NCBI GenBank assembly: GCA_035272805.1
Contig: DATEQI010000597.1
Coordinates: forward strand, 3,045-27,044
Direction: 5' to 3'
DNA length: 24,000 nucleotides
Origin: Alphaproteobacteria bacterium
GTDB lineage: Bacteria > Pseudomonadota > Alphaproteobacteria > JACZXZ01
Of this stretch, positions 7,721 to 23,845 are shown in pieces (position 1 is the stretch's first letter; every line of letters starts with the position of its first letter). The notes below the pieces were generated by a model. The model was not told where the DNA came from and did no database searches. It saw nothing but the letters and a program-made list of their open reading frames with translations. The translations under genes were made by a program, and so were the position numbers.

Positions 7721-7879
7721 TCGACCCGCCGGCCGGCATCGTGGCGCCGAGGCGGCGCAACTGCCGCCCGGTGGCTTGTTGTGCCCGCGCGGCCGCGGCA
7801 CCATATTGATCGGGCGCGGTTGCCGCCCGTGGCGTGCGGGCAAGGCGGCGCCGGGAGGACGCGGGCAGGAGTTGACGTC

Positions 7880-9820: not shown

Positions 9821-9920
9821 GCGCGTCCCGCCGCGGCCGCCCGGCTTGAAATATCGCTGTCCGCCGCATAGCTTGCCGGCGAAGGACGGCTCCCGTCCGC
9901 GCGCGGCATCGAGGCCCTAC

Positions 9921-10966: not shown

Positions 10967-11161
10967 ATGACGGTAGAGCGCATCGAGGTCCATACCGCAC
11001 GCGAGCTCATGCAGCAGCCGGAGGAATATCAGGCGGCGGTGCGCAAGATCGTGATCAGCCACGCGATCAACGAGCTCTATGGTGCGGAGGTGTTCGACGA
11101 GCCGGCGATCGCGCATGCGGCCGGCCTCGGCCTCGAGTTGCCGGCAATGGACGCCGCCTGA
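10967..11161 (+). CDS. small hypothetical protein (64 aa), possibly the 5' remnant of a ferritin-like oxygenase partner
   Basis: The ATG lies 18 nt after the reductase stop and is preceded by AGAGAGGG. Third-position GC is high, as in neighbouring genes. The segment IVISHAINELYGAEVFDEP resembles the first metal-ligand helix of ferritin-like di-iron proteins (PaaA/MiaE style). This is recognition by eye only. Confidence 0.4.
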   Translation: MTVERIEVHTARELMQQPEEYQAAVRKIVISHAINELYGAEVFDEPAIAHAAGLGLELPAMDAA

Positions 11162-11177
11162 GTCTCGCGCAGCCTCC

Positions 11178-11969
11178 ATGCGCATCGTAACTTGGAACAT
11201 CAATTCGGTCCGCCTGCGCATCGGCCTCCTCGAGCGGCTCATCGCGGAGAGCGATCCCGACGTCCTGTGCCTTCAGGAGACCAAGGTCCAGGACATGCAA
11301 TTCCCGCTTCTGCCCTTGGTACGGCTCGGCTATGAGCACCAGCTCATCCACGGCATGAAGTCCTACAACGGGGTTGCCATCCTCTCGCGCGTGCCGCTCA
11401 AGGAGACGGGGAAGATGGGCTGGTGCGAGAAGGAGGATTGCCGGCACGCCTTTGCCACGCTGCCGGGTGGCATCGAGCTCCACAACTACTACATTCCCGC
11501 GGGCGGCGATATTCCGGACCCCTCGGCCAATCCCAAGTTCGCCCATAAGCTGCGCTTCCTCTCCGAGATCGTCGCCTGGTGGGAGGGTCGGCAAAAGCCG
11601 CGGCGCAAGGCGATCCTCCTGGGCGACCTCAACATCGCCCCGCTCGAGACGGACGTGTGGTCGCACAAGGCGCTCCTCGACGTGGTGAGTCACACGCCGA
11701 TCGAGGTCGCGTGGCTCGACAAGCTCCAGGCGGCGCATGGCTTCATCGATGCCGTTCGGCGCTTCGTGCCGCCCTCTGAGAAGCTTTACAGCTGGTGGAG
11801 CTATCGCGCGGCCGATTGGCGGGCCGCGGACCGCGGCCGGCGGCTCGACCACATCTGGGTGACGCCGGCATTGGGCGGCCGACTCAAGGCCGCCGCCATC
11901 CTCAAGGACGCGCGCGGCTGGGAGCCGCCCTCCGACCACGCCCCCGTGCTCGTCGAGCTCGCGGAGTGA
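11178..11969 (+). CDS. xthA: exodeoxyribonuclease III (263 aa)
   Basis: ORF 11079..11969, with the start at ATG 11178. MRIVTWNINSVRLR...DVLCLQETK...GDLNIAP...SDHAPV are the EEP-family/Xth hallmark blocks. Confidence 0.9.
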   Translation: MRIVTWNINSVRLRIGLLERLIAESDPDVLCLQETKVQDMQFPLLPLVRLGYEHQLIHGMKSYNGVAILSRVPLKETGKMGWCEKEDCRHAFATLPGGIELHNYYIPAGGDIPDPSANPKFAHKLRFLSEIVAWWEGRQKPRRKAILLGDLNIAPLETDVWSHKALLDVVSHTPIEVAWLDKLQAAHGFIDAVRRFVPPSEKLYSWWSYRAADWRAADRGRRLDHIWVTPALGGRLKAAAILKDARGWEPPSDHAPVLVELAE

Positions 11970-12026: not shown

Positions 12027-12063
12027 GTTACGTTACTCGTAACAGCCACGGCATAGTGCCGTG
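12027..12063 (+). promoter_or_regulatory. two inverted repeats in the higBA promoter region (candidate HigA operators)
   Basis: GTTACG-ttact-CGTAAC spans 12027-12043. CACGGCA-tag-TGCCGTG spans 12047-12063, and its right arm contains the higB GTG start at 12061. The local sequence is AT-richer (TATGTTATGTGTTACG). Confidence 0.3.
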
Positions 12064-12342
12064 ATCAAGAGTTTTGCCGACAGCGACACGGCGGCACTCT
12101 ATGCCGGGCGTGAGGTGCGGCGATTTCGCGGCTATCGCATTCAGGCCGAGCGGCGTTTGGCGATCCTGCGAAACGCCAAGAGACTCGGCGATCTTGCCGG
12201 ATTGCGCAGCAACCGTCTCGAAGCGTTATCGGGAGGGCGCGCCGGGCAGTACAGCATCCGGGTGAACAGGCAATACCGGGTCTGCTTTCGCTGGTTCGAC
12301 AATAACGCCTACGATGTGGAGATCGTGGATTACCATCGTTGA
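12061..12342 (+). CDS. higB: HigB toxin (RelE/ParE superfamily, plasmid-maintenance killer type, 93 aa)
   Basis: MIKSFADSDTAALYAGREVRRF...LEALSGGRAGQYSIRVNRQYRVCFRWFDNNAYDVEIVDYH matches the HigB-type pattern (MIKSF..., L.G...G.WS[IV]RVN..[WY]R[IV].F.[WF]....A.DV...DYH). It has a GTG start. Toxin-first gene order is typical of hig loci. Confidence 0.85.
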   Translation: MIKSFADSDTAALYAGREVRRFRGYRIQAERRLAILRNAKRLGDLAGLRSNRLEALSGGRAGQYSIRVNRQYRVCFRWFDNNAYDVEIVDYHR

Positions 12343-12393
12343 ATCCGTTCGGCCATCGGCCCCGGGGACTATGTCGGCAGCAATGGGGAAGCC

Positions 12394-12729
12394 ATGACGA
12401 GCAAGAAAAAGGCGACGACGAGCTCCGCGCGGGAACCGGTCTTCGCAATGCGGCCGGTGCATCCGGGCGAGATTTTGCGCGATGAGATGGCCGAGCTGGA
12501 ACTTACGGCCAGGGCCCTCGGCCGCGCCCTCGATATCCCGGCCAACCGCGTGACGCAAATTCTCAAGGGGCAGCGCGCCGTGACGGCGGATACCGCGTTG
12601 CGGCTCGGCCGGTATTTCCGGACGTCGCCCGATTTCTGGCTCGGCCTGCAGAAGGATTACGAGCTGCGCCGGGCTGCCGACGAAGTGGGTGCCGCGATCG
12701 CGGCGAAAGTCCGTCCGCGCGCCGCTTGA
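12394..12729 (+). CDS. higA: HigA antitoxin (XRE-family HTH, 111 aa; alternative start at ATG 12448)
   Basis: PVHPGEILRDEMAELELTARALGRALDIPANRVTQILKGQRAVTADTALRLGRYFRTSPDFWLGLQKDYEL is the canonical HigA/VapI HTH core. It lies immediately downstream of higB. Confidence 0.85.
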   Translation: MTSKKKATTSSAREPVFAMRPVHPGEILRDEMAELELTARALGRALDIPANRVTQILKGQRAVTADTALRLGRYFRTSPDFWLGLQKDYELRRAADEVGAAIAAKVRPRAA

Positions 12730-13062
12730 GCAGCCGCTCGCCTGCTTTCAGCCGCGTCTTCCGGCCGTCGCGCGTGCAATGTTCGATCAGCCCGCGAATC
12801 GTGCGGGTGACGCCGGGCCGGCCCGCGGCGCCCATTCGGCGATGCGCTCGCGCACCGGATTGACGACCGCCAGCTCGACCCATTCGCCGCGTGCGCCGAA
12901 ATCCGCCCCATCGGCTCGAGCATTCGGATCGCGGTAATAATAGCCGGCTCGCCGCCGACCGGAGACGGTGACCGTGGCTGCCCCTTCCTCGATGAGCCCA
13001 TGGGACGGGGGCGGCTAGACGGGCGAATTGGGGATGGCAGTGGGGATCGCGAAGTCGCTCAT
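12730..13062 (-). pseudogene. decayed coding remnant (in-frame TAG plus at least one frameshift), function unknown
   Basis: ATG at 13062-13060 overlaps (ATGA) the stop of the 67-aa ORF upstream of it. It reads MSDFAIPTAIPNSPV, then TAG (13017-13015), then PPPSHGLIEEGAATVTVSGRRRAGYYYRDPNARADGADFGARGEWVELAVVNPVRERIAEW..., ending at TGA 12789-12787. Protein-like sequence then continues in another frame (GVTRTIRGLIEHCTRDGRKTRLKAGERLLK) and runs into the 3' end of higA. I recognise no family. Confidence 0.3.
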
Positions 13063-13262
13063 CCGCGTTTCGTTGCCCTTGATCGAGCTTCTTTCGTATC
13101 GGAATGAAATTTATTGCGGGGCGTCAGGCCATGCTGATCCAACGCGAACGCCACCTTCCGTTCCCGGTTCGAAATTTTGCGATGGCCTTCGAACCGCTGT
13201 GCCGTCTCGTCGAGGCTTCTGACGATTACATCCACCATTTTCTTGTCCGTAAGCCGTGTCAT
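13059..13262 (-). CDS. small hypothetical protein (67 aa), first gene of a decayed bicistron
   Basis: MTRLTDKKMVDVIVRSLDETAQRFEGHRKISNRERKVAFALDQHGLTPRNKFH... sits in a patch of locally lower GC (13030-13260). Its stop overlaps the next ATG (ATGA), as in TA-type pairs. I recognise no family. Confidence 0.35.
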   Translation of the reverse strand: MTRLTDKKMVDVIVRSLDETAQRFEGHRKISNRERKVAFALDQHGLTPRNKFHSDTKEARSRATKRG

Positions 13263-13379
13263 CCTATAGCCTCTTCGATCGGCGCCCGGCGCCCGTGCTC
13301 ATACACCACGGGTGGCACCGGATCGCGGCGAGTGCGCATCCCGATGGGGAATGCTAGGATCGCTGCCGAGGAGTTTCGC

Positions 13380-13634
13380 ATGGACGACAAGGTTAACGTG
13401 ACCATTCCGGTCGAACCCGAGGCTGCGGCGGCGCTTGCGGACGCGCGCAATCGCGAGGCAGTCGGTCGGCTGGTCAGCCGCGTGCTCCGGCCGCAGGCAG
13501 GCCCGAGCCCACTCGCGCGAGCCATCGCCGAGATGAAGGCTGATGCGCGGGCAGCCGGCTTGGCCGATGCCGACATCGATGCCGAGCTTGCGGCGTACAA
13601 TGCCGAGCGGCGCAAACCCACCGCAACCGATTGA
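13380..13634 (+). CDS. small antitoxin-like protein (84 aa), apparently orphan
   Basis: ORF 13104..13634, with the likely start at ATG 13380 after GAGGAG. MDDKVNVTIPVEPEAAAALADARNREAVGRLVSRVL...ADADIDAELAAYNAERRK resembles the small acidic-tailed antitoxins that pair with PIN toxins in Rhizobiales-type genomes. This is recognition by eye, not verified. Confidence 0.45.
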   Translation: MDDKVNVTIPVEPEAAAALADARNREAVGRLVSRVLRPQAGPSPLARAIAEMKADARAAGLADADIDAELAAYNAERRKPTATD

Positions 13635-13680: not shown

Positions 13681-14169
13681 TCACTCCACGCGATACATGA
13701 AATAGCGCCCGGGCTCGAGCTCGCCGGGAAGCTCGAGCTCGCGCCATGCCGGGTGCGGCATGGGCTGGTCGCCGAGCACGACCCCGCCCGCTGCCATGAG
13801 CGGGGCGAGGAGCGGGGCAATCTCGGCGGCGAGCGCCCGGCTCGCCTCCGGGCTGTGCGAGCCGATGTCGCAGTGGGCGAGGGCCGCCTTGGCGCCGAGG
13901 TGCTTAAGTGCGCTCGGCAGCGTGTCGCGAAAGTCGCCTTGAATGAAATGCCCGGCGTCGGGGCGCGAGCTCGGGTGTGCCGCGAGCTCGCGGTCGAAGA
14001 CGAAGATCTCGCGGCCCCCGAGGCGCTCGCGCAAATGGTCGTAGGTGCGGCCGTTGCCGAGCCCGAGCTCGAGGACCGGGCCCGGAAGGGCTGCGATGAG
14101 CTTGGCCGCGTGGTCGATCGTGGCGCGTTGGGCGAGGAGGCGCCGGATGAAGCTGTCGAGCCGGCTCAA
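13681..14169 (-). CDS. small class-I SAM-dependent methyltransferase-like protein (162 aa)
   Basis: LELGLGNGRTYDHL (GxGxG SAM motif I), followed by an acidic FVFDRE (motif II-like). The size and sequence are reminiscent of the short stand-alone 'Methyltransf_17'-type family (from memory). Its TTG start overlaps the upstream stop (TTGA). Confidence 0.6.
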   Translation of the reverse strand: MSRLDSFIRRLLAQRATIDHAAKLIAALPGPVLELGLGNGRTYDHLRERLGGREIFVFDRELAAHPSSRPDAGHFIQGDFRDTLPSALKHLGAKAALAHCDIGSHSPEASRALAAEIAPLLAPLMAAGGVVLGDQPMPHPAWRELELPGELEPGRYFMYRVE

Positions 14170-14624
14170 TGGTGCTCCGCGTGATCGACCGCGTCGCGCA
14201 ATTGATGCGTGGTGCGCTCGAGGCGGTCGGCGAGCACGCGCATGATCTCGATCCCCATCTGGGGGAATTCGGTGATCAGCTTGAAGAAGAGCTCCTTCGA
14301 GATGCGCAAGGTGACGAGCTCGCTTTTCGCCTTCACGGTCGCGGTGCGCGGCACATCGCAGAGAATCGCGATTTCGCCCACGATATCATTGCGCCCGAGC
14401 TTGGCGACCACGAGCGGCCCCGCCGGTGTGTCGACGACCACATCGGCCTCGCCGGAGAGGATGATGTAGGCGGCGTCTCCCGGGTCGCCCTGATGAAAGA
14501 GCACCTGGTCGGCATGGTAGGTGAGGCGTTCCGAGGTGAAGGCGAGCAGCTTGAGCTTCGAGGCCTCGATTTTCCCGAAGAGCGGGATGTTGCGCAGGAT
14601 GTCGACTTCTTCCTTGAGACTCAT
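14166..14624 (-). CDS. stand-alone cyclic-nucleotide-binding (CAP effector-type) domain protein (152 aa), no output domain
   Basis: LFGKIEASKLKLLAF...FHQGDPGDAAYIILSGEADVVV...GRNDIVGEIAILCDVPRTATVKA contains the phosphate-binding cassette G-E-[IL]-A...R-[ST]-A with the cNMP-contacting Arg retained. There is no HTH or other effector domain. A GGAGG Shine-Dalgarno lies 6 nt upstream, and the ATG is 18 nt after the ABC gene stop. Confidence 0.85.
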   Translation of the reverse strand: MSLKEEVDILRNIPLFGKIEASKLKLLAFTSERLTYHADQVLFHQGDPGDAAYIILSGEADVVVDTPAGPLVVAKLGRNDIVGEIAILCDVPRTATVKAKSELVTLRISKELFFKLITEFPQMGIEIMRVLADRLERTTHQLRDAVDHAEHH

Positions 14625-14642
14625 CTTGACCTCCAGCCCGCC

Positions 14643-17309
14643 CTATTCCGCCGCCACCATCTCGTGGAACGCCGAGCCTGCGCGGTTGAGCTCGGCGACC
14701 GCACCCTCCTCCACCAGCTTTCCGCTGCGCATGACGAGGACGCGGTCGAAATTGCGCGCGAGCTCGGCACGGTTGAGCACGGCGACAAGGCCGCGGCCCT
14801 TGAACTCCGCGCGCAGGTTCTCGAGAACCCTGCTTTGGGAGCTGCTGTCGAGGGCCGCCAGCGCATCATTGAGGATCAGGAGGTCGGGCCGCTTCAACAC
14901 CACGCGCGCGATCGCGAGCTTCTGCCGCTGCGCGCCGGAGAGGCGGCTGCCGGCGCTTCCGATGTTGTAGCCGAGGCCGGCCTCCATCACCGAGCCCCGC
15001 AGCTCAAGCGTCTCGAGCACTTCCTGGATGAGCGCACCTACCCGCTGCGCGCCTTGAGGCTGGCCGTAGGCGACCTTGCCGAAGAGCACGTTGTCCTGCA
15101 GCGTGGCCGCGGCATTGTAGCTCTCGAAATCGAAGAACGCGACCGCCCCCCGCAACTCCGGCGGCAGCCCGTCGCGGAAGACGTCGCGCGCCTCGAGGAT
15201 GCGCTGCTTGAAATTCGCGTCGATCAGATCGAGGCGATGACGGGCCGGAATGAGCTTGAAGGGCAGGTTCAAGAGACGGTTCTTGTCCTCCTCCTTGAGC
15301 TGGTCGAGGCCGCTCGTGCCCACGCGCGTGAGCAAGGCCTGGAACTCGGGAAGCTCGTCGGCGCTGATGAAGGAGTATTGCTCGAAGAGCTCGCTCCCCG
15401 GCGGCAGACCGGCGAAGAGCTCGACCATGGTCGTGGCTGCCTCGCGCCCCATGCCCAGGATGAGCCCCGTGAGGCCGGTCTTGTCGAGGACCTGGCGCAC
15501 GTAAGCGTTCCCGGCGAGGCGCTCCATGTCGAAGGCGTCGCCCACGGGCGTGCCGAAGAGGAGATTCTCGGCGACGCTCGCGTTGTCGTTGTAGCGTTTT
15601 CGGTCGAAGAGCTCGACGAGTTGCGCGAAACTCGGCTCCGCGAGCCGCTCGCGCAAGGCGTGGCGCGCCTCGAGGACGCTCTTGGCGAGGTCGGGCCGCT
15701 TCGCGGGATCGATGACGCTGAGCAGGCCCACGTGATAGACGTCGTCCTCCATCTCGGTGAGTTTGAGGATCTCGAGGGCGCGTTCCCTGAGCTCGGCCTT
15801 CGAGCCGGCTCCTGCCGCGGCATAATCGATCCACTCGGCTGCGACGTCGAGTGGCGGGTTCCCGGTACGCACGGCCTCCGCCATCAACGCTTGGCGCTCG
15901 GGCGAAGACGGGCCTTCCGATAACGGCTTGTGCTTGAGCGCGTAAAAGAGATTGCTGTCTATGGTGCCGGAGAAGAGATAGCTGTGCTGAGCGACGAAGC
16001 CGACGCGCCGTCCACTGATCGCCTCGGGCCAATCGGCGATATTCTCCCCCCCGATCGTGATCTTGCCGCCGCTCGGCGGCAGGAGCCGGGCCAGCATCAG
16101 GCCGAGCTCCTCCTTGCCGCTGGCACCCGTGCCGACGACGGCGATGTGGTTGTCGAGCGCGAAGCGCGCCGAGACGTTGTCGACGATCTTGAGTCGGCCG
16201 TCCTCGCTGAAGCTGACGTTGGCGAGCTGCACTTCGCCCTTGAGCGGCTCGATCCTCTCGGGCTCGACGAGCTGCCCCTGCTCGTCGCTCGTGCCGGGCG
16301 GGGCGAACTGCTGAACCACCTGCTCGTACATGATCCGCGCGTTGTCCTTGCTCTGGTAGAAGGTGAGCAGCTCGCCCCAGGGGCCCGCGAGATCCTTTTG
16401 CGCGCCGATGACCGCGACGAGCGCTCCGATATCGAGCTGTCCCTGCAAGACCAGATAGCCCCCGATCGTGAAGAAGAAGAACGGCGTCACCTTGTCGGCC
16501 GTGTTGTTGATGTATTTGACGAGGAACTTGAGGATGAAAATCCTGAGGCGGGTATAGTATTGCGTATAGAGACGGTCGGAGAAGTCGGCGCGCTCGAAAC
16601 GGGAGGTGTCGTTGGCGTGAATCTCAAGCGCTCCGCCCACCGCCTCGCCGAGGCGTTCGGAGAGCCCGCGTTGCGTGCGGATGCGCCGCTTGTTGTGCTC
16701 GTTGATGCGCTTCTGCATTTTCGGGATGAGATAGCCCTGCCCGGGATAAAGCGCCACCGCCGCCAGCCCGAGCCAGGGGTTCTGCATCAGGATGAAATAG
16801 AGCGGCACCAGCAGCAGCCCGCCTTGAAATATCGGCGTCGCAACGGCATCGCCGACGAATTCGCCCAAGGTCACGGTCTCGGCGATGAGCATCGCGATGA
16901 TCTCGCCCACGGAGATCTTCTTGAAGTGGGGGAGGGGAAAACAGAGGATGCGGCTGTAGAGCTGATAGCGCATGCGGCGCAGCATGCGCTCCCCGAGGCG
17001 GCCCTTGTAGACATTGATGAAGTACTTGAAGCCGCCGTTCACGATGGTCAGCGCCAGGAACACGACGGAGAGCAGCATGAGCCAGTTGACCGCGCCGAAA
17101 TCCATGCCGAAAAGGTGGTTCGCCTTCACGGAGGCGAGCCCGCCCCCGCGGTAGGCCTGGTTCGCCGAGTCCTTGATGTGATTGATGATCAGCTTGGGCA
17201 GGTCATAGGAGTAGTAGAGAAACGGGAACGAGACTCCCGTGACCATGAGCAAGACGATTTGCTCCTTAAAGCTATACTTTAGGATAAACCGGTAAATATT
17301 TTTTTCCAC
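14643..17309 (-). CDS. ABC exporter-like fused permease/NBD protein with degenerate NBD motifs and a large NBD insertion (888 aa from GTG 17309; 906 aa if GTG 17363)
   Basis: The N-terminal ~340 aa has a type-I exporter TMD pattern. The NBD carries GTGASGKE (Walker A), VAQ (Q-loop), LSGAQRQKLAIAR (signature), LLILNDALAALD (Walker B/D-loop) and VAVLNRA (H-loop position). I prefer the start VEKNIYRFILKYS at GTG 17309, which has GGGGA 9 nt upstream and matches the usual N-termini of this transporter class. Confidence 0.85.
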   Translation of the reverse strand: MEKNIYRFILKYSFKEQIVLLMVTGVSFPFLYYSYDLPKLIINHIKDSANQAYRGGGLASVKANHLFGMDFGAVNWLMLLSVVFLALTIVNGGFKYFINVYKGRLGERMLRRMRYQLYSRILCFPLPHFKKISVGEIIAMLIAETVTLGEFVGDAVATPIFQGGLLLVPLYFILMQNPWLGLAAVALYPGQGYLIPKMQKRINEHNKRRIRTQRGLSERLGEAVGGALEIHANDTSRFERADFSDRLYTQYYTRLRIFILKFLVKYINNTADKVTPFFFFTIGGYLVLQGQLDIGALVAVIGAQKDLAGPWGELLTFYQSKDNARIMYEQVVQQFAPPGTSDEQGQLVEPERIEPLKGEVQLANVSFSEDGRLKIVDNVSARFALDNHIAVVGTGASGKEELGLMLARLLPPSGGKITIGGENIADWPEAISGRRVGFVAQHSYLFSGTIDSNLFYALKHKPLSEGPSSPERQALMAEAVRTGNPPLDVAAEWIDYAAAGAGSKAELRERALEILKLTEMEDDVYHVGLLSVIDPAKRPDLAKSVLEARHALRERLAEPSFAQLVELFDRKRYNDNASVAENLLFGTPVGDAFDMERLAGNAYVRQVLDKTGLTGLILGMGREAATTMVELFAGLPPGSELFEQYSFISADELPEFQALLTRVGTSGLDQLKEEDKNRLLNLPFKLIPARHRLDLIDANFKQRILEARDVFRDGLPPELRGAVAFFDFESYNAAATLQDNVLFGKVAYGQPQGAQRVGALIQEVLETLELRGSVMEAGLGYNIGSAGSRLSGAQRQKLAIARVVLKRPDLLILNDALAALDSSSQSRVLENLRAEFKGRGLVAVLNRAELARNFDRVLVMRSGKLVEEGAVAELNRAGSAFHEMVAAE

Positions 17310-17563
17310 AGTCTTTTTCCCCTGTCCCCAGCCGCCTCGAAGGGGTGCGCGGCGGCCCAGCACCTTAGCCTAGTGCGAGCGGGCCGTAAATGCCGCCCCG
17401 GGCGGTCGGTGCCGAATGGGAGGCATGCGGCCCGTTTCGCAGCACCTGCGGCGAATGACGGCAGGATCGGCCGGCGGGGCCACCTGCTGGCGCGGCGCCA
17501 CAAGAAGCGCGCTCGCCGCAACAGGAACGCAGATTGGCGTCACCCCTTCGTCACAAGACTCGC

Positions 17564-17593
17564 TTTGACGCCGATGGGCGCGATAGGCTATGG
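17564..17593 (+). promoter_or_regulatory. sigma-70-type promoter candidate for the glycosyltransferase operon
   Basis: -35 is TTTGAC (17564-17569), followed by an 18-nt spacer and -10 CTATGG (17588-17593), ~30 nt upstream of ATG 17624. The -35 overlaps the right arm of the inverted repeat GGCGTCA (17536-17542) / TGACGCC (17566-17572). Confidence 0.25.
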
Positions 17594-17623
17594 GGTAGCC
17601 GAATCTCGAGGGGGCCGGTCGCA

Positions 17624-18844
17624 ATGTCGAGCCGCAAAGGCACGCGCGTTCTGATCTACAGCCACGACACCTTCGGCCTCGGACATTTGAGGCGCTGTCG
17701 GGCCATCGCGCATTCCCTTGTCGAGCACCACAAGGACATGTCGGTGCTGATCCTCTCGGGCTCGCCGATCATCGGCAGCTTCGATTTTCGCGCGCGCGTC
17801 GATTTCGTGCGCGTGCCCGGGGTCATCAAGCTCCACAACGGCGAATACACCTCCTTGAATCTCCATATCGACATCGGCGAGATGCTTGCCATGCGCTCGT
17901 CGATCATCCGCCACACGGCCGACACCTTCGATCCGGATCTCTTTCTCGTGGACAAGGAGCCGCTCGGCCTGCGCGGCGAGATCGAGGACACGCTGTCCCT
18001 CTTGAAGGCCCGCGGCGTGCCGATCGTCCTCGGCCTGCGCGACGTGATGGACGAGCCCGCGCTGCTCGCGCCCGAATGGGAGCGCAAGAAGGTGCTGCCG
18101 GCGCTCGCCGACTTCTATGACGAGATCTGGATCTACGGCTTGCCGCAGGTGTGCGATCCGCTCGAGGGGATCGAGATTCCCGACTCCGTTCGGCGTCGCA
18201 CGGTCTACACCGGCTATCTCGAGCGCAAGGTGCCGACGCATCTCACCCACATGCCGGCACGGCCGCGCCTGGAAGTGCCGTATCTGCTCGTGACGCCGGG
18301 AGGCGGGGGGGATGGCGACGCGCTCATCGACTGGGTGCTGCGCGCCTACGAGCAGTATCCCACGATGCCCCACCCGGCGCTCATGGTGCTCGGTCCTTTC
18401 ATGCAGCCGGAGCGCCAAGGCGAATTCATGGTGCGCGCGAGCCAGCTCAAGAACGTCGAGATGATGACCTTCGATGCGCGTATGGAGACGCTTGTCGATG
18501 GCGCGTTGGGGGTCGTCGCCATGGGGGGATACAACACCTTCTGCGAGATCCTCTCCTTCGACAAGCCGGCACTCATCGTGCCCCGCACCGCACCCCGGCT
18601 CGAGCAATACATCCGCGCCTCGCGCGCCCAGGAGCTCGGCCTGGTCTCGCTCCTGGTCGACCAGTACGCGCGCGATCCCCACATGATGGCGACCGCACTG
18701 CGCCAGCTGCCGCAGCAGAAGCGGCCCTCGGACGTGGTCGTGCCGGGGCTGCTCGACGGTCTCAGCAACGTGAACCGCCTGGTCGAGCGGCATCTCAGGC
18801 CGCGCCATGTCCATCCGGTGCCGGTCGCCACGGGTCACCCGTAG
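17624..18844 (+). CDS. GT-B fold glycosyltransferase, MurG/GT28-C-like 'predicted glycosyl transferase' (COG4671-type), 406 aa
   Basis: ORF 17534..18844, with the start at ATG 17624. The N-terminus reads RVLIYSHDTFGLGHLRRCRAIA. The C-terminal nucleotide-sugar motif reads VVAMGGYNTFCEILSFDKPALIVPR. Confidence 0.75.
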   Translation: MSSRKGTRVLIYSHDTFGLGHLRRCRAIAHSLVEHHKDMSVLILSGSPIIGSFDFRARVDFVRVPGVIKLHNGEYTSLNLHIDIGEMLAMRSSIIRHTADTFDPDLFLVDKEPLGLRGEIEDTLSLLKARGVPIVLGLRDVMDEPALLAPEWERKKVLPALADFYDEIWIYGLPQVCDPLEGIEIPDSVRRRTVYTGYLERKVPTHLTHMPARPRLEVPYLLVTPGGGGDGDALIDWVLRAYEQYPTMPHPALMVLGPFMQPERQGEFMVRASQLKNVEMMTFDARMETLVDGALGVVAMGGYNTFCEILSFDKPALIVPRTAPRLEQYIRASRAQELGLVSLLVDQYARDPHMMATALRQLPQQKRPSDVVVPGLLDGLSNVNRLVERHLRPRHVHPVPVATGHP

Positions 18845-18848
18845 AGCC

Positions 18849-20183
18849 GTGGTGCCCACCGTCGCAGTCATCCTCAAGGGCTATCCGCGCCTTTCCGAGA
18901 CCTTCATCGCGCAGGAGCTCAGGGAGCTCGAGCGCCGCGGGCTCTCGCTCCACATCGTCTCGCTGCGCCATCCGACCGACGCGGTCCTCCATCCCATCCA
19001 TCGCGAGATCGCGGCCCCGGTGCTCTACGTGCCCGAGTATCTGCACGACGAGCCGCAGCGCGTGCTGAGCGCGTGGCGGGCGCTCAGGGGATCGAGGGGC
19101 TACCGGCGCGCCCGCGCGGCCTGGCTCGCCGATCTCGCCCGCGATCCCACGCCCAACCGCGTGCGCCGCTTCGGCCAGGCGCTCGTGCTTGCGCACGAGC
19201 TGCCGCCTCGGGTCGAGCGGCTTCACGCTCACTTCCTCCACACGCCTGCCTCGGTCGCGCGCTACACGAGCCTCATGACCGGCCTCAAGTGGAGCTGCTC
19301 TGCGCACGCCAAGGACATCTGGACGATACCCGCGTGGGAGAAGCGCGAGAAGCTCGCGAGCCTCGATTGGCTCGTCACCTGCACGCGCGCCGGCGCCGAG
19401 CATCTCAAGGCGCTCAGCAGCGAGCCGCGCAAGATCGAGCTCGTCTATCACGGACTCGATCCGGCGCGCTTCCCGCCGCGCGAGGCGGCACCGTCGCCGC
19501 GCGATGGACGCGATCCCTCAGCACCGGTCGTGATCCTCTCGGTCGGCCGGCTCGTCGCCAAGAAAGGCTACGGCGATTTGCTCGCTGCCTTGGCACGGCT
19601 TCCCAAGGCGCTCCACTGGCGCTTTATCCATGTGGGGGGCGGACCGCTCGCGCAGTCGCTCGCGCGCGGGGCCGCGAGATGCGGGATCGCCGCGCGCGTC
19701 GCCTGGCTCGGGCCGCTCTCCCAGGAGGCCGTGCTGGCGCAATATCGCAGCGCCGATCTCTTCGCGCTCGCCTGCCGCGTGGCGCCCGACGGCGATCGGG
19801 ACGGCCTGCCCAACGTGCTTCTCGAGGCGCAGAGCCAGGGACTCGCCTGTCTTTCGACCACGGCGGGCGGCGTTCCCGAGCTGATCGAAGCGGGGCGGTC
19901 CGGCCTGCTCGCCCAACCGGGCGACGTGCCGGCACTCGCAGCACACTTGGCACGGCTTATTCAGGAGCCCGCGTTGCGCGCGCAGCTCGCTCGCGCAGGT
20001 GCGGCGCGGGTGCGCCAGAGTTTCAGCTTCCAGCCTGGCATCGCGCGGCTTGCCGAGAAGTTCGGCCTTTCCGCGGGCGGGGAGGCGGATGGCAAGCTGC
20101 CCGCCGCTGCCGCCGAGACGAGCACGGAAGCTGCCGCCAGCGGGCCGCTACCGTCATGCGCATCGCGTTCTATGCGCCGCTGA
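18849..20183 (+). CDS. GT4-family glycosyltransferase (WcaL-like N-terminus), ~444 aa
   Basis: ORF 18807..20183. I prefer GTG 18849, 4 nt after the upstream stop, because homologs of this type begin a few residues before the VAVILKGYPRLSETFI block. ATG 18807 would give a 38-nt overlap. The GT4 E-x7-E region is DGLPNVLLEAQSQGLACLSTTAGGVPELI. Confidence 0.75.
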   Translation: MVPTVAVILKGYPRLSETFIAQELRELERRGLSLHIVSLRHPTDAVLHPIHREIAAPVLYVPEYLHDEPQRVLSAWRALRGSRGYRRARAAWLADLARDPTPNRVRRFGQALVLAHELPPRVERLHAHFLHTPASVARYTSLMTGLKWSCSAHAKDIWTIPAWEKREKLASLDWLVTCTRAGAEHLKALSSEPRKIELVYHGLDPARFPPREAAPSPRDGRDPSAPVVILSVGRLVAKKGYGDLLAALARLPKALHWRFIHVGGGPLAQSLARGAARCGIAARVAWLGPLSQEAVLAQYRSADLFALACRVAPDGDRDGLPNVLLEAQSQGLACLSTTAGGVPELIEAGRSGLLAQPGDVPALAAHLARLIQEPALRAQLARAGAARVRQSFSFQPGIARLAEKFGLSAGGEADGKLPAAAAETSTEAAASGPLPSCASRSMRR

Positions 20184-21295
20184 AGCCGCCGGACCATCCG
20201 GTGCCCTCGGGAGACCGGCGCGTCGGCCGTGCGCTCATCGCAGCCCTCGGCCTCGCCGGACACGAGGTGAGGCTTGCCTCGCGCCTGCGCAGTTGGGACG
20301 GTGCGGGAGATGCGGCCCGGCAGCGCCGTATCGAGCGCCTGGGCGGGCGGCTCGCCTCCCGCCTCATTCGCCGATACGGCAGCGAGCCTCGGCTGCGGCC
20401 GGAACTCTGGCTCACCTACCATCTCTATCACAAGGCGCCGGACTGGCTTGGGCCCGCGGTTGCGAGCGAGCTCGCGATACCCTATGTCGTCGTCGAGGCG
20501 TCATCGGCGCGCAAGCAGGCGAGCGGCTGCTGGGCAATGGGGCATGCCGCGAGTGCCGCCGCGATCGCGCGCGCGGACGCCCTCATCAATCTCAACGGCG
20601 ACGATCGCGAGGGTTTGCTTCAGCTGGTCGGCGAGCCCGCGCGCATCAGCCACTTGGCCCCGTTCATCGAGACGGCGGCCTATGCCCGGGCCAAACCCGC
20701 GCGCACAAGGCTCGCCGAGCGCTATGGGCTCGACTCAGCACGGCCTTGGCTCCTCGCGGTTGCGATGATGCGGGAGGGGGCGAAGCTCGCCTCCTATCGC
20801 GTGCTGGCCGAGGCGCTGCGCCTCATCGACGGCCTCGACTGGCAGCTCGTCATCGTCGGCGACGGCCCGGCGCGCGGCGAGGTCGAGGCGCTGCTGGCCC
20901 CCCTCGGCGAGGGCCGCGCGCGCTTGCTTGGCGCGCTCGCGGCGGAGGCGCTGCCCCCGCTCTATGCCAGCGCCGATCTTTATCTCTGGCCCGCCATCCA
21001 CGAGGCCTTCGGCATGGCGTTCCTCGAGGCCCAGGCCGCCGGGCTGCCGGTGGTCGCGGGGCGCGAGCGCGGCGTGCCGGAGGTCGTGCGCGAGGGCGAG
21101 GCGGGCCTGCTTGTGCCACCGAGCGACGCCCGCGCCTTCGCCGCCGCGGTCGCAACGCTCCTTGCCGATCCCGGCCGCCGCCGTGCCATGGGTGCCCGCG
21201 CCCGCGCGATTGCCTCTGCCGAGGCCGACATCGGCGCCGCAGCGAGGCGGCTGGATGCGATCCTGCGGCAGGTCCTCGCGGAGCGGCGGGCATGA
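20156..21295 (+). CDS. GT4-family glycosyltransferase (379 aa)
   Basis: This is the in-frame ATG 20156 of ORF 19073..21295. Everything upstream of it in that ORF is a shadow of the preceding gene. It begins MRIAFYAPLKPPDHPVPSGDRR and has the GT4 motif HEAFGMAFLEAQAAGLPVVAGRERGVPEVV. It overlaps the upstream gene by 28 nt. Confidence 0.8.
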   Translation: MRIAFYAPLKPPDHPVPSGDRRVGRALIAALGLAGHEVRLASRLRSWDGAGDAARQRRIERLGGRLASRLIRRYGSEPRLRPELWLTYHLYHKAPDWLGPAVASELAIPYVVVEASSARKQASGCWAMGHAASAAAIARADALINLNGDDREGLLQLVGEPARISHLAPFIETAAYARAKPARTRLAERYGLDSARPWLLAVAMMREGAKLASYRVLAEALRLIDGLDWQLVIVGDGPARGEVEALLAPLGEGRARLLGALAAEALPPLYASADLYLWPAIHEAFGMAFLEAQAAGLPVVAGRERGVPEVVREGEAGLLVPPSDARAFAAAVATLLADPGRRRAMGARARAIASAEADIGAAARRLDAILRQVLAERRA

Positions 21296-21882
21296 CGCAG
21301 CTGGCGCTCATCCGCCATGCCGCGAGCGCGTGGAGCGAGCGCGGGCTCATCCAGGGCCGCGCCGACCCCTCGCTCAGCCCCGGCGGTGCCGCCGCTGCCG
21401 CGGCCTGGCGCGTGCCGGCCGCACTCGCCGCCTTCGACTGGGTGGCGAGCCCGCTTGCGCGCGCCTCTGAGACCGCCCGTCTTCTCCTCGGCCGCGAGGT
21501 GGCCGTCGAGCCCTCGCTCATCGAAATGGCATGGGGCGATTGGGAGGGCGAGCATCTTGCCGAGCTTCGCGCCAAGCTGGGCGCCGCGATCGCCGAGAAC
21601 GAAGGGCGCGGGCTCGACTTCCGTCCGCCGGGCGGGGAGAGCCCGCGCGATGTCCAGCGCCGTCTCGAGCCGTGGCTCGCGCGCGTGGCGCTCAGGGCCC
21701 GGCCCACGGCGGCCGTGACGCATAAGGGCGTCATCCGCGCCGTCGTCGGTTTGGCGACCGGGTGGGACTTTCTCGGCAAGCCGCCGCTGCGGCTCGCCCC
21801 CGCCACAGCCCAGCTCTTCGAGCTTGACGAAGGCGGGCGGCCGCGCCTTCTCTCAGCCAACATCCCGCTCGCCGCACCGTGA
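21292..21882 (+). CDS. histidine phosphatase superfamily (phosphoglycerate-mutase-like) protein (196 aa)
   Basis: MTQLALIRHAASAWSERGLIQGRAD carries an RH[GA] catalytic motif. Further blocks are WGDWEG...GESP...VTHKGVIRA (second His). Its ATG overlaps the upstream TGA (ATGA). Confidence 0.8.
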   Translation: MTQLALIRHAASAWSERGLIQGRADPSLSPGGAAAAAAWRVPAALAAFDWVASPLARASETARLLLGREVAVEPSLIEMAWGDWEGEHLAELRAKLGAAIAENEGRGLDFRPPGGESPRDVQRRLEPWLARVALRARPTAAVTHKGVIRAVVGLATGWDFLGKPPLRLAPATAQLFELDEGGRPRLLSANIPLAAP

Positions 21883-23048
21883 GCCGCCTCCTCCTCTACG
21901 TCCAGAGCCTCCTCGGCGTCGGCCATCTGGCGCGCGCCGCCCTCCTTGCGCGCGCCTTCGCCGCGGCCGGCTGGGAGGTCGACCTCGTCTCCGGAGGCAT
22001 GCCCGTTGGAGAAGTGAGCGCGGGTGCGGCCCGCCTCGTTCAGCTGCCCCCCGCGCGCAGCCGAGACGAGGCCTTCAGCGGGCTCGTGGACGAGGCGGGC
22101 AAGGCGGTCGACGCGGCTTGGCGCCAGGCGCGCCGCGAGCGTCTCCTAGCACTCTTCGCCGAGCGCCGGCCGGACGTCCTGATCCTCGAGATGTTTCCCT
22201 TCGGCCGCCGGCAGATGCGCTTCGAGCTCCTCCCGCTCCTCGCTGCGGCGAGGGCCGCGGCGCGCCCTCCGCTCGTCGTCTCCTCCGCGCGCGACGTCGT
22301 GCAAGGCCGGCGCAAGCCGGGCCGGGCGGAGGAGGCGTTGGCCCTCCTCGAGGAGGCTTTCGACCTCGTCCTTGTGCACGGCGATCGGCACCTCGTGCGC
22401 TTCGAGGAGAGCTTTCCGCTCGCAGCCGAGCTCGGTGCCCGGCTGCGCTACACCGGCTATATCGCCCCGCCTCAAGTACCCCGGGGCCGCGCCGGTGAGG
22501 TGGGCTGGGACGAAGTGGTGGTCTCGGCCGGGGGTGGGGCTGTTGGCGCAGCACTGCTTGAAACGGCATTGGCCGCGCGGCCGCTCAGCAAGCTCAAGGC
22601 TCGCCGCTGGCGCCTTCTTGCCGGCCGCAACCTGCCTCAAGGTGCGTTTGCCGCCCTTGCCGCCCAGGCGCCGCCCGATGTTGTCGTCGAGCGCGCGCGC
22701 CCGGATTTTCAAGGGCTCTTGGCCAATTGCCGCGTGTCGATTTCCCAGGCCGGCTATAATACGGTGATGGACATTGCGAGTGCTGACGCGCGGGCCGTGC
22801 TCGTGCCCTTCGTCGGGCTCGGCGAGACGGAGCAGACGCTCCGTGCCGAGAAGCTCGCGGCGCGCGGGCTCGTGCAAGTCGTCCCCGAGCGCCAACTGAC
22901 GGCGGCACGTCTCGCTGCCGCGGTCGATGCGGCCGAGGTGATGCCGGCCCCCCGCTTCGCCGCTTTCGACATGTCGGGTGCTGCGACCAGCGTGCGCATC
23001 GTGAGCGAGGTATTGTCCCGCCGCCCGGCCGCGGGGGTGCGCGCATGA
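21879..23048 (+). CDS. second MurG/COG4671-like GT-B glycosyltransferase (389 aa), paralog of 17624..18844
   Basis: LLYVQSLLGVGHLARAALLA parallels LIYSHDTFGLGHLRRCRAIA in the first copy. The C-terminal VSISQAGYNTVMDIASADARAVLVPF parallels the GGYNT block. Its GTG start overlaps the upstream TGA (GTGA). Confidence 0.7.
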   Translation: MSRLLLYVQSLLGVGHLARAALLARAFAAAGWEVDLVSGGMPVGEVSAGAARLVQLPPARSRDEAFSGLVDEAGKAVDAAWRQARRERLLALFAERRPDVLILEMFPFGRRQMRFELLPLLAAARAAARPPLVVSSARDVVQGRRKPGRAEEALALLEEAFDLVLVHGDRHLVRFEESFPLAAELGARLRYTGYIAPPQVPRGRAGEVGWDEVVVSAGGGAVGAALLETALAARPLSKLKARRWRLLAGRNLPQGAFAALAAQAPPDVVVERARPDFQGLLANCRVSISQAGYNTVMDIASADARAVLVPFVGLGETEQTLRAEKLAARGLVQVVPERQLTAARLAAAVDAAEVMPAPRFAAFDMSGAATSVRIVSEVLSRRPAAGVRA

Positions 23049-23845
23049 GCAGCTGGGCAGCACTTGAGCGCGAGCTCGACGCCTGGCAGGCGGCGGGCCG
23101 GGTCGCGAGCCTGTGGTGGCGCGATGACGACGCGGTGGACACCACGCCGGCGCTCGAGCGGCTGCTCGCGACCGCAGGCACCTATGGCATCCCGTTGGCG
23201 CTCGCCGTGGTGCCGCAGCCGGCCCGCGCGAGCCTCGCGGACGCGATCGGCGATGCGCCGGCCGTGACTCCGCTGCCACACGGCTACGCGCATGTGAGCC
23301 ATGCCCCCGCGGGCGCCAAGAGCGGCGAGCTCGGGCCTGCGCGGGCGGTTGCGGTGAACCTCCGTGAAGCAGCACTCGGCTGGCAGCGCCTTCAGGCGCT
23401 CTTCGGCAGCCGGGCCTTCCCCGTGCTCGTGCCGCCGTGGAATCGCATCGATCCGGCGCTCATCCCGCACTTGCCCGGACTCGGCTTTTGCGGCCTCTCG
23501 GCTTGGGGGGCGCGCACAGAAGCGCTTCCGGCACCCGGCCTCGTGCAAGCCAATGCCCACCTCGACCTCATCGACTGGCGCGGCAGCCGCGGCTTCGTCG
23601 GCGAGGCGGATGCGCTCGACGAGCTCGCCTCCCATCTCGCGGCGCGCCGTCGCGGCGAGGTGGACCCGGACGAGCCGAGCGGCCTGCTCACGCACCACCT
23701 CGCTCATGACGCCGGCGCTTGGCGCTTCATCGAGACGCTCTTCGCGCGGACCCTGGGCCACTCTGCCGTCCGCTGGCTCGACGCGGAGGAGATCTTCCGG
23801 CCTTCGCAAGCGAGGCCGCGCGCCGCCGCCCCCGACGGTCCATGA
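23045..23845 (+). CDS. polysaccharide deacetylase (NodB/CE4-like) family protein (266 aa)
   Basis: LWWRDDDAVD is an Asp-Asp motif-1-like block and HGYAHVSH is a His-x-x-x-His metal motif. LVPPWNRI and LLTHHLAHD are also present. Its start overlaps the upstream stop (ATGA). Confidence 0.6.
   Translation: MSSWAALERELDAWQAAGRVASLWWRDDDAVDTTPALERLLATAGTYGIPLALAVVPQPARASLADAIGDAPAVTPLPHGYAHVSHAPAGAKSGELGPARAVAVNLREAALGWQRLQALFGSRAFPVLVPPWNRIDPALIPHLPGLGFCGLSAWGARTEALPAPGLVQANAHLDLIDWRGSRGFVGEADALDELASHLAARRRGEVDPDEPSGLLTHHLAHDAGAWRFIETLFARTLGHSAVRWLDAEEIFRPSQARPRAAAPDGP

What the first reader, a model, noticed from the sequence alone, without database searches (positions are those of the whole stretch)
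13681..14624. Stand-alone cNMP-binding domain protein coupled to the degenerate ABC gene and to a small methyltransferase
The 152-aa protein is only a CAP-type cyclic-nucleotide-binding domain. Its phosphate-binding cassette is intact (GEIAILCDVPRTATVKA) and it has no DNA-binding or enzymatic output. It starts 18 nt after the ABC stop behind a GGAGG Shine-Dalgarno. Its stop overlaps the TTG start of a 162-aa SAM-methyltransferase-like gene (TTGA).

A domain with no output of its own, expressed in step with an exporter lacking catalytic NBD residues, suggests it acts as a cNMP-sensing regulatory subunit of that exporter. Fusions of cNMP-binding domains to ABC exporters are, to my recollection, known in bacteriocin-type exporters. 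Here the domain is a separate polypeptide in a glycan context.
Basis: inference. Interest (0 to 1): 0.65.

Follow-up and report, generated by a model that had tools for sequence, protein, structure and literature searches.

The report
cAMP-sensor subunit of a dead-ATPase ABC protein
A small protein that is only a cyclic-nucleotide sensor is the detachable regulatory part of an uncharacterised, widespread ABC-transporter-like membrane protein that has lost its ATP-splitting residues, so a cAMP-type signal, not ATP hydrolysis, may control it.

Summary
Window 14166-14624 (-) encodes a 152-aa protein that is only a cNMP-binding domain, with an intact phosphate-binding cassette. It starts 18 nt after the ABC stop codon, behind GGAGG. 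Its stop overlaps the TTG start of a PF12692 methyltransferase.

The partnership with the ABC gene is strongly supported. In 57 of 57 orthologous loci from different alphaproteobacterial species, the same unusual ABC gene lies directly upstream on the same strand. In more than 100 other lineages the two are one polypeptide (ABC-CNB). Some of these also carry a degenerate GGDEF domain. In 21 of 57 loci an adenylyl-cyclase-type gene follows the CNB gene.

The ABC partner has no complete catalytic motif set in any of 166 relatives examined. It also carries a conserved insert of about 290 aa with no structural neighbour in the PDB.

The methyltransferase is a clade-specific accessory. It is adjacent in 17 of 57 CNB loci, and 44 of 66 methyltransferase loci have the CNB gene upstream. 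The trio as such is therefore only partly conserved.

I found no paper describing this family. It is best read as a new variant of ligand-regulated ABC proteins. The ligand, the substrate and the mechanism are inferred, not shown.

The parts
14166..14624 (-). Stand-alone cyclic-nucleotide-binding (CNB) protein, 152 aa
   Evidence: PF00027 is the only domain. The AlphaFold2 model has pLDDT 88.9: N-terminal helices, an 8-strand beta roll and a long C-helix at aa 122-150. Best structural matches are the CRP/GlxR sensor domains, TM 0.7-0.8.
14328..14378 (-). Phosphate-binding cassette GEIAILCDVPRTATVKA (aa 83-99)
   Evidence: G83 through T96 are invariant in 36 homologues. Across the 57 genome orthologues the cassette is conserved, with G, Arg and Ala present in every sequence; the printed alignment shows a few exchanges (E to D, PR to SR or NR, RTA to RSA).
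14630..14634 (-). GGAGG ribosome-binding site within the 18-nt ABC-CNB spacer (14625-14642)
   Evidence: Read directly from the sequence.
14643..17363 (-). ABC type-IV-exporter-like protein with non-catalytic NBD. Longest ORF is 906 aa; the probable true start is the GTG at 17309, giving 888 aa.
   Evidence: PF00664 plus a split PF00005 match. Motif degeneracy. Start codon.
14964..15938 (-). NBD insert region (ABC aa 476-800). About 290 extra residues lie between the Q-loop and the signature motif, and they contain an internal duplication.
   Evidence: The Q-loop-to-signature distance is 344-366 aa in 166 relatives. hhalign between the two halves gives probability 87%, E 4e-6. The model has pLDDT 86.4 and no PDB neighbour (best E 0.74). 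There is no Pfam hit. The insert defines a family of 716 50%-identity clusters at E<=1e-10.
16110..16133 (-). Degenerate Walker A motif GTGASGKE (aa 411-418): Ser/Thr replaced by Glu
   Evidence: K-[ST] is present in only 2 of 166 relatives.
14865..14882 (-). Degenerate Walker B motif LLILND (aa 828-833): Asp to Asn, and catalytic Glu to Asp
   Evidence: D-E is present in 1 of 166 relatives.
13681..14169 (-). PF12692 (Methyltransf_17) SAM methyltransferase, 162 aa. Its TTG start overlaps the CNB stop. It is a clade-specific accessory gene.
   Evidence: Adjacent to CNB in 17 of 57 CNB loci. 44 of 66 methyltransferase loci have CNB directly upstream.
17534..23845 (+). Divergent glycosyltransferase cluster: GT28-like, GT4, GT4, His_Phos_1 phosphatase, GT28-like, and an unknown 266-aa protein
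   Evidence: Pfam and NCBIfam. The same gene set sits next to both split and fused ABC-CNB genes in other genomes.

Best explanation
The 152-aa protein is the detached C-terminal regulatory domain of the neighbouring ABC-fold membrane protein.

Shown:
- It is a canonical CRP-type cyclic-nucleotide-binding domain with an intact phosphate-binding cassette. It ends right after the long C-helix and has no output domain.
- It is always encoded directly after one particular ABC family. In many lineages it is fused to that protein's C-terminus.
- In a third of the loci an adenylyl-cyclase-type gene follows it.
- The ABC partner has lost the residues needed for ATP hydrolysis throughout the family.

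Inferred:
- The CNB protein probably acts as a dimer through its C-helix, matching an ABC homodimer.
- It sits under the NBDs, where the C-terminal regulatory domains of MalK, MetN and ModC sit.
- It binds cAMP (cGMP is not excluded), and its ligand state sets the conformation of the NBD pair. That in turn decides whether the transmembrane pathway is open.
- The cargo is most likely the product of the co-inherited glycosyltransferase genes, a glycolipid or small glycoside. In the window's clade, the methyltransferase may modify it.
For: Domain identity and an intact, conserved cassette.

Synteny: the ABC gene is directly upstream on the same strand in 57 of 57 species-level loci spanning Rhodospirillales-like MAGs, Geminicoccaceae, Rhizobium/Sinorhizobium, Breoghania, Pseudoxanthobacter, Rhodobiaceae and Tepidamorphaceae. 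The median gap is 29 nt.

Fusion: L056 is an in-frame ABC-CNB protein of 1025 aa. 116 of the 120 best database clusters are fused proteins of more than 1000 aa carrying PF00664 and PF00027.

ABC-centred look-ups of distant members still find a ~150-aa CNB gene in the cluster.

Cyclase link: PF00211 genes lie after CNB in 21 of 57 loci. All readable cases have Lys at the purine-specifying position, and the best PDB matches are the adenylyl cyclases bPAC and OaPAC.

Dead NBD: 0 of 166 relatives have the full canonical motif set.

The glycosyltransferase cluster is co-inherited with both the split and the fused forms.
Against: - There is no experimental or structural evidence for contact between the two proteins. 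Complex prediction was not possible with these tools.
- The phosphate-binding Arg is missing in 54 of 117 aligned cassette sequences (116 fused relatives plus the window's own protein). Cyclic-nucleotide binding is therefore not a universal property of the family.
- The HetC CNB domain on another ABC exporter binds ppGpp, not cAMP (PMC10986499).
- No cyclase gene lies in this window.
- In one clade (13 loci) no glycosyltransferase genes lie within 10 kb; a CDP-alcohol phosphatidyltransferase is linked instead. The cargo is therefore not fixed.
- With inactive NBDs it is unclear what would power transport.
Confidence: 0.7

Rival explanations
1. The ABC-CNB pair is a signalling receptor or scaffold, not a transporter. 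The ABC-fold membrane domain would sense a lipid or glycan, the CNB would integrate cAMP, and the output would be regulation of the glycosyltransferases or of a downstream domain. No substrate would be moved.
For: The NBD is catalytically dead in all 166 relatives. Some members carry a further C-terminal GGDEF-type domain after the CNB. The NBD has a large insert of its own with no known fold, which could be an interaction platform.
Against: The full type-IV exporter membrane domain is retained (PF00664; MsbA is the best NCBIfam match at 1e-55). The extra GGDEF domain is itself degenerate (ESEF in place of GGDEF). The consistent linkage to biosynthetic genes, and to an Opp-like importer, fits movement of a product.
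Confidence: 0.2
2. The CNB domain binds a ligand other than a cyclic nucleotide (for example ppGpp, a sugar nucleotide or a pathway intermediate). It would then act as a product or metabolite sensor for feedback control of the ABC protein.
For: The HetC CNB domain binds ppGpp and not cAMP (PMC10986499). The cassette Arg is replaced by Thr, Ala, Ile or Val in about half of the fused relatives.
Against: In the split clade that includes the window, the cassette is close to the PKA/PKG/CRP consensus. It has the Gly-Glu pair and Arg-Thr-Ala, which are conserved across the 57 orthologues with only occasional conservative exchanges. Cyclase genes are directly linked in 21 of 57 loci.
Confidence: 0.12
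3. The CNB protein's real partner is the methyltransferase, or the glycosyltransferases. Translational coupling would reflect a CNB-methyltransferase complex, and the ABC adjacency would be only operon packaging.
For: There is a TTGA stop/start overlap in the window and its close relatives. 44 of 66 methyltransferase loci have CNB directly upstream.
Against: The methyltransferase is absent in 40 of 57 CNB loci, including the closest genome relative, L001. No CNB-methyltransferase fusion turned up among the CNB, ABC and fused-protein hits, although methyltransferase relatives were not searched for fusions, whereas ABC-CNB fusions are abundant. In L016 the methyltransferase lies between ABC and CNB.
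Confidence: 0.05

Closest known systems
HetC of Nostoc PCC 7120, and the TIGR03896/TIGR03797 'bacteriocin-type' systems (CNB domains on or beside peptidase-containing ABC exporters)
   Same: A CAP-type CNB domain is attached to, or encoded next to, a type-IV ABC exporter. In HetC it is required for the exporter's function (PMC10986499). TIGR03896 is a separate CNB protein associated with such transporters.
   Different: - In those systems the CNB is N-terminal, or is a two-CNB protein of about 317 aa.
- The exporters there have active ATPase and peptidase domains and move peptides.
- HetC's domain binds ppGpp.
- Here the CNB is C-terminal or split off, the NBD is non-catalytic and carries a 290-aa insert, and the context is glycosyltransferases plus a cyclase.
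- The window protein scores 47.6 bits against the TIGR03896 cutoff of 161.
C-terminal regulatory domains of ABC ATPases (MalK, MetN C2 domain, ModC). Comparison from established knowledge, not tested here.
   Same: A small ligand-binding domain follows the NBD. It dimerises beneath the NBD pair and controls NBD closure (trans-inhibition). The fused relatives place the CNB at exactly this position.
   Different: Those are importers with active ATPases. Their regulatory domains are not CNB folds and bind the transported substrate or a regulatory protein.
CFTR and SUR (ABC proteins working as a gated channel or regulator under cAMP or nucleotide control). Comparison from established knowledge.
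   Same: An ABC exporter fold has impaired catalytic sites, and its gating, rather than pumping, is controlled by a cAMP-linked regulatory element.
   Different: In CFTR, cAMP acts through PKA phosphorylation of the R domain, and one ATP site stays active. Here a CNB domain would bind the nucleotide directly, and both sites of a homodimer are degenerate.
Bacterial cyclic-nucleotide-gated channels MloK1 and SthK
   Same: A C-terminal CNB domain gates a membrane transport pathway. SthK is among the sequence matches (E 2.7e-10).
   Different: Those are tetrameric voltage-gated-like K+ channels, not ABC folds.
CRP/FNR-family transcription factors (Mtb CRP, GlxR, Clr)
   Same: They are the best structural matches for the CNB domain, including the long C-helix (TM 0.7-0.8). 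Several databases label the homologues 'CRP/FNR family'.
   Different: There is no helix-turn-helix domain. The protein ends at the C-helix (152 aa against about 210-250 aa), so it cannot be a DNA-binding regulator.

Membership tests
Cyclic nucleotide-binding domain, Pfam PF00027 | Match to the family profile above the gathering score | tested here: met
   75.2 bits against a cutoff of 27.5, E 4.1e-21.
Cyclic nucleotide-binding domain, Pfam PF00027 | Beta-roll fold with a phosphate-binding cassette containing Gly-Glu ... Arg-[Thr/Ser]-Ala | tested here: met
   GEIAILCDVPRTA at aa 83-95, conserved in the orthologues with few exchanges. The model shows an 8-strand roll plus helices. Fold matches are to cAMP- and cGMP-bound domains.
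Cyclic nucleotide-binding domain, Pfam PF00027 | Actual binding of cAMP or cGMP | not testable with these tools
   Needs ITC or DSF with purified protein. Linked adenylyl-cyclase-type genes in 21 of 57 loci are indirect support.
CRP/FNR transcription regulators | C-terminal helix-turn-helix DNA-binding domain after the CNB domain | tested here: not met
   The protein ends at aa 152, right after the C-helix. There is no HTH Pfam hit. It scores 50.9 bits against the CRP model NF008732, cutoff 266.
TIGR03896 cyc_nuc_ocin (bacteriocin-type transport-associated CNB protein) | Score at or above the curated cutoff, with the two-CNB architecture of about 317 aa | tested here: not met
   47.6 bits against a cutoff of 161.05. 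Only profile positions 139-267 are matched, by a single CNB domain.
ABC type-IV exporter (partner protein) | ABC_membrane six-helix domain followed by an ABC_tran NBD | tested here: met
   PF00664 E 2e-16; PF00005 E 1.6e-14 in two stretches. Aligns to ABCB19, ABCB1, Sav1866 and PCAT1.
ABC type-IV exporter (partner protein) | Catalytic motifs: Walker A GxxGxGK[ST], Walker B hhhhDE, signature LSGGQ, H-loop His | tested here: not met
   The window protein has GASGKE, LLILND, LSGAQ and LNR. 0 of 166 relatives have the full set.
Methyltransf_17, Pfam PF12692 (downstream gene) | Full-length match to the profile and to the solved family member 3IHT | tested here: met
   E 1.5e-58 over profile positions 1-159 of 160. 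3IHT at E 7e-44.
   The ABC-CNB pair is present in 57 of 57 loci. The methyltransferase is present in 17 of 57 CNB loci. 44 of 66 methyltransferase loci carry CNB upstream. The trio holds within one clade only.

The most novel reading that the evidence does not exclude
This family is an ATP-independent, cyclic-nucleotide-gated ABC-fold facilitator or channel. The NBDs would have become pure dimerisation and gating modules. A cAMP-loaded CNB dimer, fed by a dedicated adenylyl cyclase, would replace ATP binding and hydrolysis as the conformational switch. It would open a pathway for release or flipping of a glycolipid or glycoside, and the Opp-like importer in the same cluster could take that product back up.
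Probability: 0.22. Interest if true: 0.9.

Novelty: new variant of a known kind. Interest (0 to 1): 0.68.

Why it matters
ABC exporters are defined by ATP-driven transport. Known degenerate sites occur in heterodimers that keep one working site.

This family differs in three ways:
- It is large: 716 clusters at 50% identity with E<=1e-10.
- It is encoded as a single gene, so it presumably forms a homodimer, and no member has the full catalytic motif set.
- It is always tied to a cyclic-nucleotide-binding domain, and often to an adenylyl cyclase.

If the inference holds, it is a direct, non-transcriptional route from cAMP to the cell envelope in Alphaproteobacteria, where many cyclases still lack known targets. 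It would also be a natural test case for what an ABC fold can do without hydrolysis.

The family is experimentally tractable. Cultured strains carry it: Rhizobium sp. CF122 and Root1220, Rhizobium cauense, Breoghania corrubedonensis DSM 23382 and Marinibaculum pumilum.

Tried and rejected
- Literature: seven full-text searches found no description of this family. They combined CNB, ABC, degenerate, glycosyltransferase, cyclase, Methyltransf_17 and the Pfam names. Only HetC came up as a comparator.
- Complex prediction: not possible, because the structure tool is single-chain and returns no coordinates. I therefore did not model the fused protein.
- Insert: no Pfam hit even at E 0.1 and no PDB structural neighbour.
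- Glycosyltransferase cluster product: it could not be identified. The GT28-like protein and the 266-aa protein have no PDB sequence relatives. The GT4 protein matches only generic small-acceptor or lipid-acceptor enzymes such as PimB', BshA and MshA.
- Regulatory elements: no Rfam family in the window, no sigma-70-like promoter, terminators at chance level, and no CRP-box enrichment. Inverted repeats in the divergent promoter are unremarkable.
- Heterodimer partner: no second exporter-type ABC gene with intact motifs was seen in any inspected neighbourhood. A distant partner cannot be excluded.
- Rejected idea, truncated CRP pseudogene: conservation is too high.
- Rejected idea, assembly artefact behind the L056 fusion: more than 100 independent fused clusters exist.

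Full report
**Observation.** On the minus strand the window carries three tightly packed genes.

- The ABC gene occupies 14643-17363.
- The CNB gene occupies 14166-14624. It starts 18 nt after the ABC stop codon, with GGAGG at 14630-14634.
- The methyltransferase gene occupies 13681-14169. Its TTG start overlaps the CNB stop codon as TTGA.

The 152-aa CNB protein has one Pfam domain, cNMP_binding (E 4.1e-21). The 162-aa protein is a full-length Methyltransf_17 (E 1.5e-58). The ABC protein has ABC_membrane and a split ABC_tran match. The methyltransferase is 1:1 alignable with the structural-genomics protein 3IHT.

The ABC start is probably the GTG at 17309. Homologues align only from residue 13-19 onward, a close relative is 888 aa long, and an AGGGGA precedes that GTG.

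**The CNB protein itself.** Its closest solved relatives by sequence are CNB domains of PKG, PKA-R, bacterial CRPs and stand-alone CNB proteins. An AlphaFold2 model built on 36 homologues is confident (pLDDT 88.9). It shows the N-terminal helices, the eight-strand roll and a 29-residue C-helix. The best structural matches are the sensor domains of Mtb CRP and GlxR, including that helix (TM 0.7-0.8).

The protein ends where CRP's DNA-binding domain would begin, so it has no output domain. It fails the curated cutoffs of CRP, Pat and the bacteriocin-associated TIGR03896 family.

The cassette residues G83 through T96 (GEIAILCDVPRTAT) are invariant in 36 database homologues. Across 57 genome orthologues the cassette is conserved with only occasional exchanges. 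The Arg-Thr-Ala form occurs in both cAMP and cGMP binders, so the sequence alone does not settle ligand specificity (my knowledge of the PKA and PKG cassettes).

**Is the coupling to the ABC gene real?** A scan of one genome per species returned 57 loci with an orthologue at 47-85% identity. They come from several alphaproteobacterial families. In all 57, a homologue of the window's ABC protein lies immediately upstream on the same strand. The median gap is 29 nt.

One locus, L056, has no stop codon between the two genes. It encodes a 1025-aa ABC-CNB protein with an acidic linker. Searching with that protein showed this is common. 116 of the 120 best clusters are proteins of more than 1000 aa carrying ABC_membrane and cNMP_binding. 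They come from Rhodospirillaceae, Hyphomicrobiales, marine Alphaproteobacteria and even Sedimenticolaceae. Seven are about 1180 aa and carry an added GGDEF domain.

The window therefore holds the split form of a widespread fusion. This is the classical argument for physical and functional association.

Look-ups centred on the ABC gene of two distant members gave the same answer. In one, a 150-aa CNB gene directly follows the ABC gene. In the other, a 153-aa CNB gene lies 4 kb away in the same cluster.

**A link to cyclic-nucleotide synthesis.** In 13 Geminicoccaceae-type loci a gene of about 410 aa with a class III cyclase domain starts within a few to a few hundred bases of the CNB stop codon. 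In 8 further loci (Rhodobiaceae, Tepidamorphaceae, Breoghania and others) a more distant cyclase follows. In some of these a metallo-beta-lactamase-fold gene lies in between.

The catalytic domains are most similar to the adenylyl cyclases bPAC and OaPAC (E 1.5e-23). This favours cAMP.

The window has no cyclase gene.

**The ABC partner.** Aligned to ABCB19, the window protein differs from the catalytic motifs at four places:

- Walker A motif: GASGKE in place of GSGSGKS.
- Signature motif: LSGAQ in place of LSGGQ.
- Walker B motif: LLILND in place of LLLLDE.
- H-loop: LNR in place of AHR.

Across 50 split and 116 fused relatives, none has the full canonical set. K-[ST] occurs in 2, D-E in 1, and the H-loop His in 8. 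The Walker A Lys is often Arg or Ala.

The distance from the Q-loop to the signature motif is 344-366 residues. My recollection is that canonical NBDs have about 55-60 residues there. The insert is therefore about 290 aa and of conserved length.

Properties of the insert:

- It contains an internal duplication of the segment that normally precedes the signature motif (hhalign probability 87%, E 4e-6).
- It folds confidently as a mainly helical domain (pLDDT 86.4).
- It has no structural neighbour in the PDB (best E 0.74) and no Pfam match.

Used alone as a query, the insert finds 1042 cluster representatives at E<=1e-3 and 716 at E<=1e-10. In the full-length proteins among the 150 hits listed it always sits at about residues 450-800 of an ABC-like protein. 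Of the 70 full-length proteins among the best 150 hits, 50 are split-type in length, 18 are CNB-fused, and 2 are longer.

No second exporter-type ABC gene was seen in any inspected neighbourhood. A homodimer with two dead sites is therefore the simplest reading.

**Genomic context.** Divergent from the ABC gene, the window encodes a GT28-like protein, two GT4 proteins, a histidine phosphatase, a second GT28-like protein and an unknown 266-aa protein. The same set accompanies both split and fused ABC-CNB genes elsewhere. It is usually followed by a small unknown protein and an Opp-like importer with a fused double ATPase, an SBP_bac_5 binding protein and two permeases.

At least two of the glycosyltransferase genes lie within 10 kb in 32 of 57 loci.

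The Geminicoccaceae clade lacks them. There the order is unknown 540-aa protein, ABC, CNB, cyclase, FkbM methyltransferase, CDP-alcohol phosphatidyltransferase, Usp.

The cargo is therefore not identified. A glycolipid or small glycoside is my best guess. The best family match of the ABC is MsbA, and the best match of the GT4 is PimB'.

**The methyltransferase.** It follows CNB in 17 of 57 loci. It is missing in the closest genome relative, L001. In L016 it lies between ABC and CNB.

Seen from the methyltransferase side, 44 of 66 metagenomic loci with enough upstream sequence have the CNB orthologue directly upstream. Four more lie beside the glycosyltransferase genes.

The methyltransferase is thus a frequent, clade-specific accessory of the cluster, not an obligate partner of CNB. 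A methyltransferase of a different family (FkbM) recurs in other clades. This hints that the product is methylated (inference).

**Mechanism.** Shown:

- A canonical CNB domain without an output domain.
- Obligate genomic pairing, and frequent fusion, with a pseudo-ATPase ABC-fold protein.
- Frequent linkage to an adenylyl-cyclase-type gene.

Inferred:

- The CNB dimer docks beneath the NBDs, at the position it occupies in the fused proteins. The regulatory domains of MalK, MetN and ModC sit there too (my knowledge).
- It binds cAMP, and it thereby controls NBD association and the state of the membrane domain.
- Whether the protein transports, gates or only signals is open.

Caveats:

- The cassette Arg is absent in 54 of 117 aligned cassette sequences, 116 fused relatives plus the window's own protein.
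- The extra GGDEF domain is degenerate.
- HetC's CNB domain binds ppGpp.

**Comparison and novelty.** CNB domains on ABC exporters are known (HetC and the TIGR03896/03797 systems). So are regulatory domains behind NBDs and cyclic-nucleotide-gated channels.

The new features here are the combination of a C-terminal or split CNB with a family-wide non-catalytic NBD, a novel insert, and a dedicated cyclase in a glycosyltransferase or lipid-synthesis cluster. Seven full-text searches found no description of it.

I rate it a new variant of a known kind, with interest 0.68. The most novel reading not excluded by my evidence is an ATP-independent, cAMP-gated ABC-fold facilitator. I give that a probability of about 0.22.

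Noticed in passing
window 14643-17363 (-), motifs at 16110-16133, 14928-14942, 14865-14882 and 14772-14774: The ABC NBD is non-catalytic not only here but in all 166 relatives examined, split and fused. The Walker A Lys is often Arg or Ala, the Walker B Asp is mostly Asn, and the H-loop His is mostly absent. The QRQK that follows the signature motif is nearly invariant in the split forms.
   Followed up: yes
window 14964-15938 (-): The ~290-aa NBD insert contains an internal duplication of the 'LEARxxFRxxL ... YNxxASxxENLLFG ... VLxxxGL' unit (ABC aa ~557-640 and ~716-800). It is confidently predicted as helical and has no PDB structural neighbour. Used alone, it defines a family of about 700-1000 clusters at 50% identity.
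   Followed up: yes
L013:10441-11679, L048:10505-11983, L053:11950-13371, L168:10080-11444: Adenylyl-cyclase-type class III cyclase genes lie directly downstream of the CNB gene in 21 of 57 orthologous loci. The window has the methyltransferase in that position instead.
   Followed up: yes
L053:10880-11773; also L046, L049, L052 and L168:9232-10083: A metallo-beta-lactamase-fold hydrolase sits between CNB and the cyclase in several clades. It could be a cyclic-nucleotide phosphodiesterase, but this was not tested.
   Followed up: no
L082:10001-13555, L083:9311-12865; proteins P0227-P0239: Some family members are ABC-CNB-GGDEF triple fusions of about 1180 aa in the same glycosyltransferase operon. 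Their GGDEF motif is degenerate (for example ESEF), so they are probably not active diguanylate cyclases.
   Followed up: partly
Fused proteins P0121-P0240 (CNB part): The phosphate-binding Arg of the cassette is replaced by Thr, Ala, Ile or Val in 54 of the 116 fused proteins, whereas it is present in all 57 split CNB proteins. Ligand binding may have been lost or changed in those clades.
   Followed up: partly
L084:1-957, L086:1-986, L082:13670-18778, L168:1-5908 (beyond window position 23845): An Opp-like importer and two small unknown proteins are conserved at the far end of the glycosyltransferase cluster. The importer has a fused double ATPase with oligo_HPY, an SBP_bac_5 binding protein and two permeases. 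This suggests a make, release and re-import cycle. The window ends before these genes.
   Followed up: partly
L013:5639-14838 and 12 similar Geminicoccaceae loci: An alternative operon: unknown 540-aa protein, ABC, CNB, cyclase, FkbM methyltransferase, CDP-alcohol phosphatidyltransferase, Usp. No glycosyltransferase genes lie within 10 kb. This points to a lipid-type cargo in that clade.
   Followed up: partly
window 12061-13634 (+): A HigB/HigA toxin-antitoxin pair (12061-12342 and 12394-12729) and an ORF of 176 aa with no family match (13104-13634) lie between the methyltransferase and the exonuclease III-like gene (11079-11969). In close relatives (L084, L088, L090) the exonuclease gene directly abuts the methyltransferase, so this looks like a ~1.7-kb insertion.
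   Followed up: partly
window 17309-17363 (-): The longest ABC ORF starts at the GTG at 17363. Homologues and a purine-rich AGGGGA point to the GTG at 17309 as the true start (888 aa). The first ~50 nt of the gene are unusually A+T-rich for this G+C-rich DNA.
   Followed up: partly
window 4293-8518 (+): Ordinary housekeeping genes lie upstream: FtsK (4293-6791), two tandem LolA-family genes (7067-7720 and 7781-8518), a Peptidase_C26 gamma-glutamyl hydrolase-like gene (8383-9519), a ferredoxin-NAD(P) reductase-type gene (9819-10949) and an ammonium transporter (1902-3509). They are syntenic with L084.
   Followed up: partly
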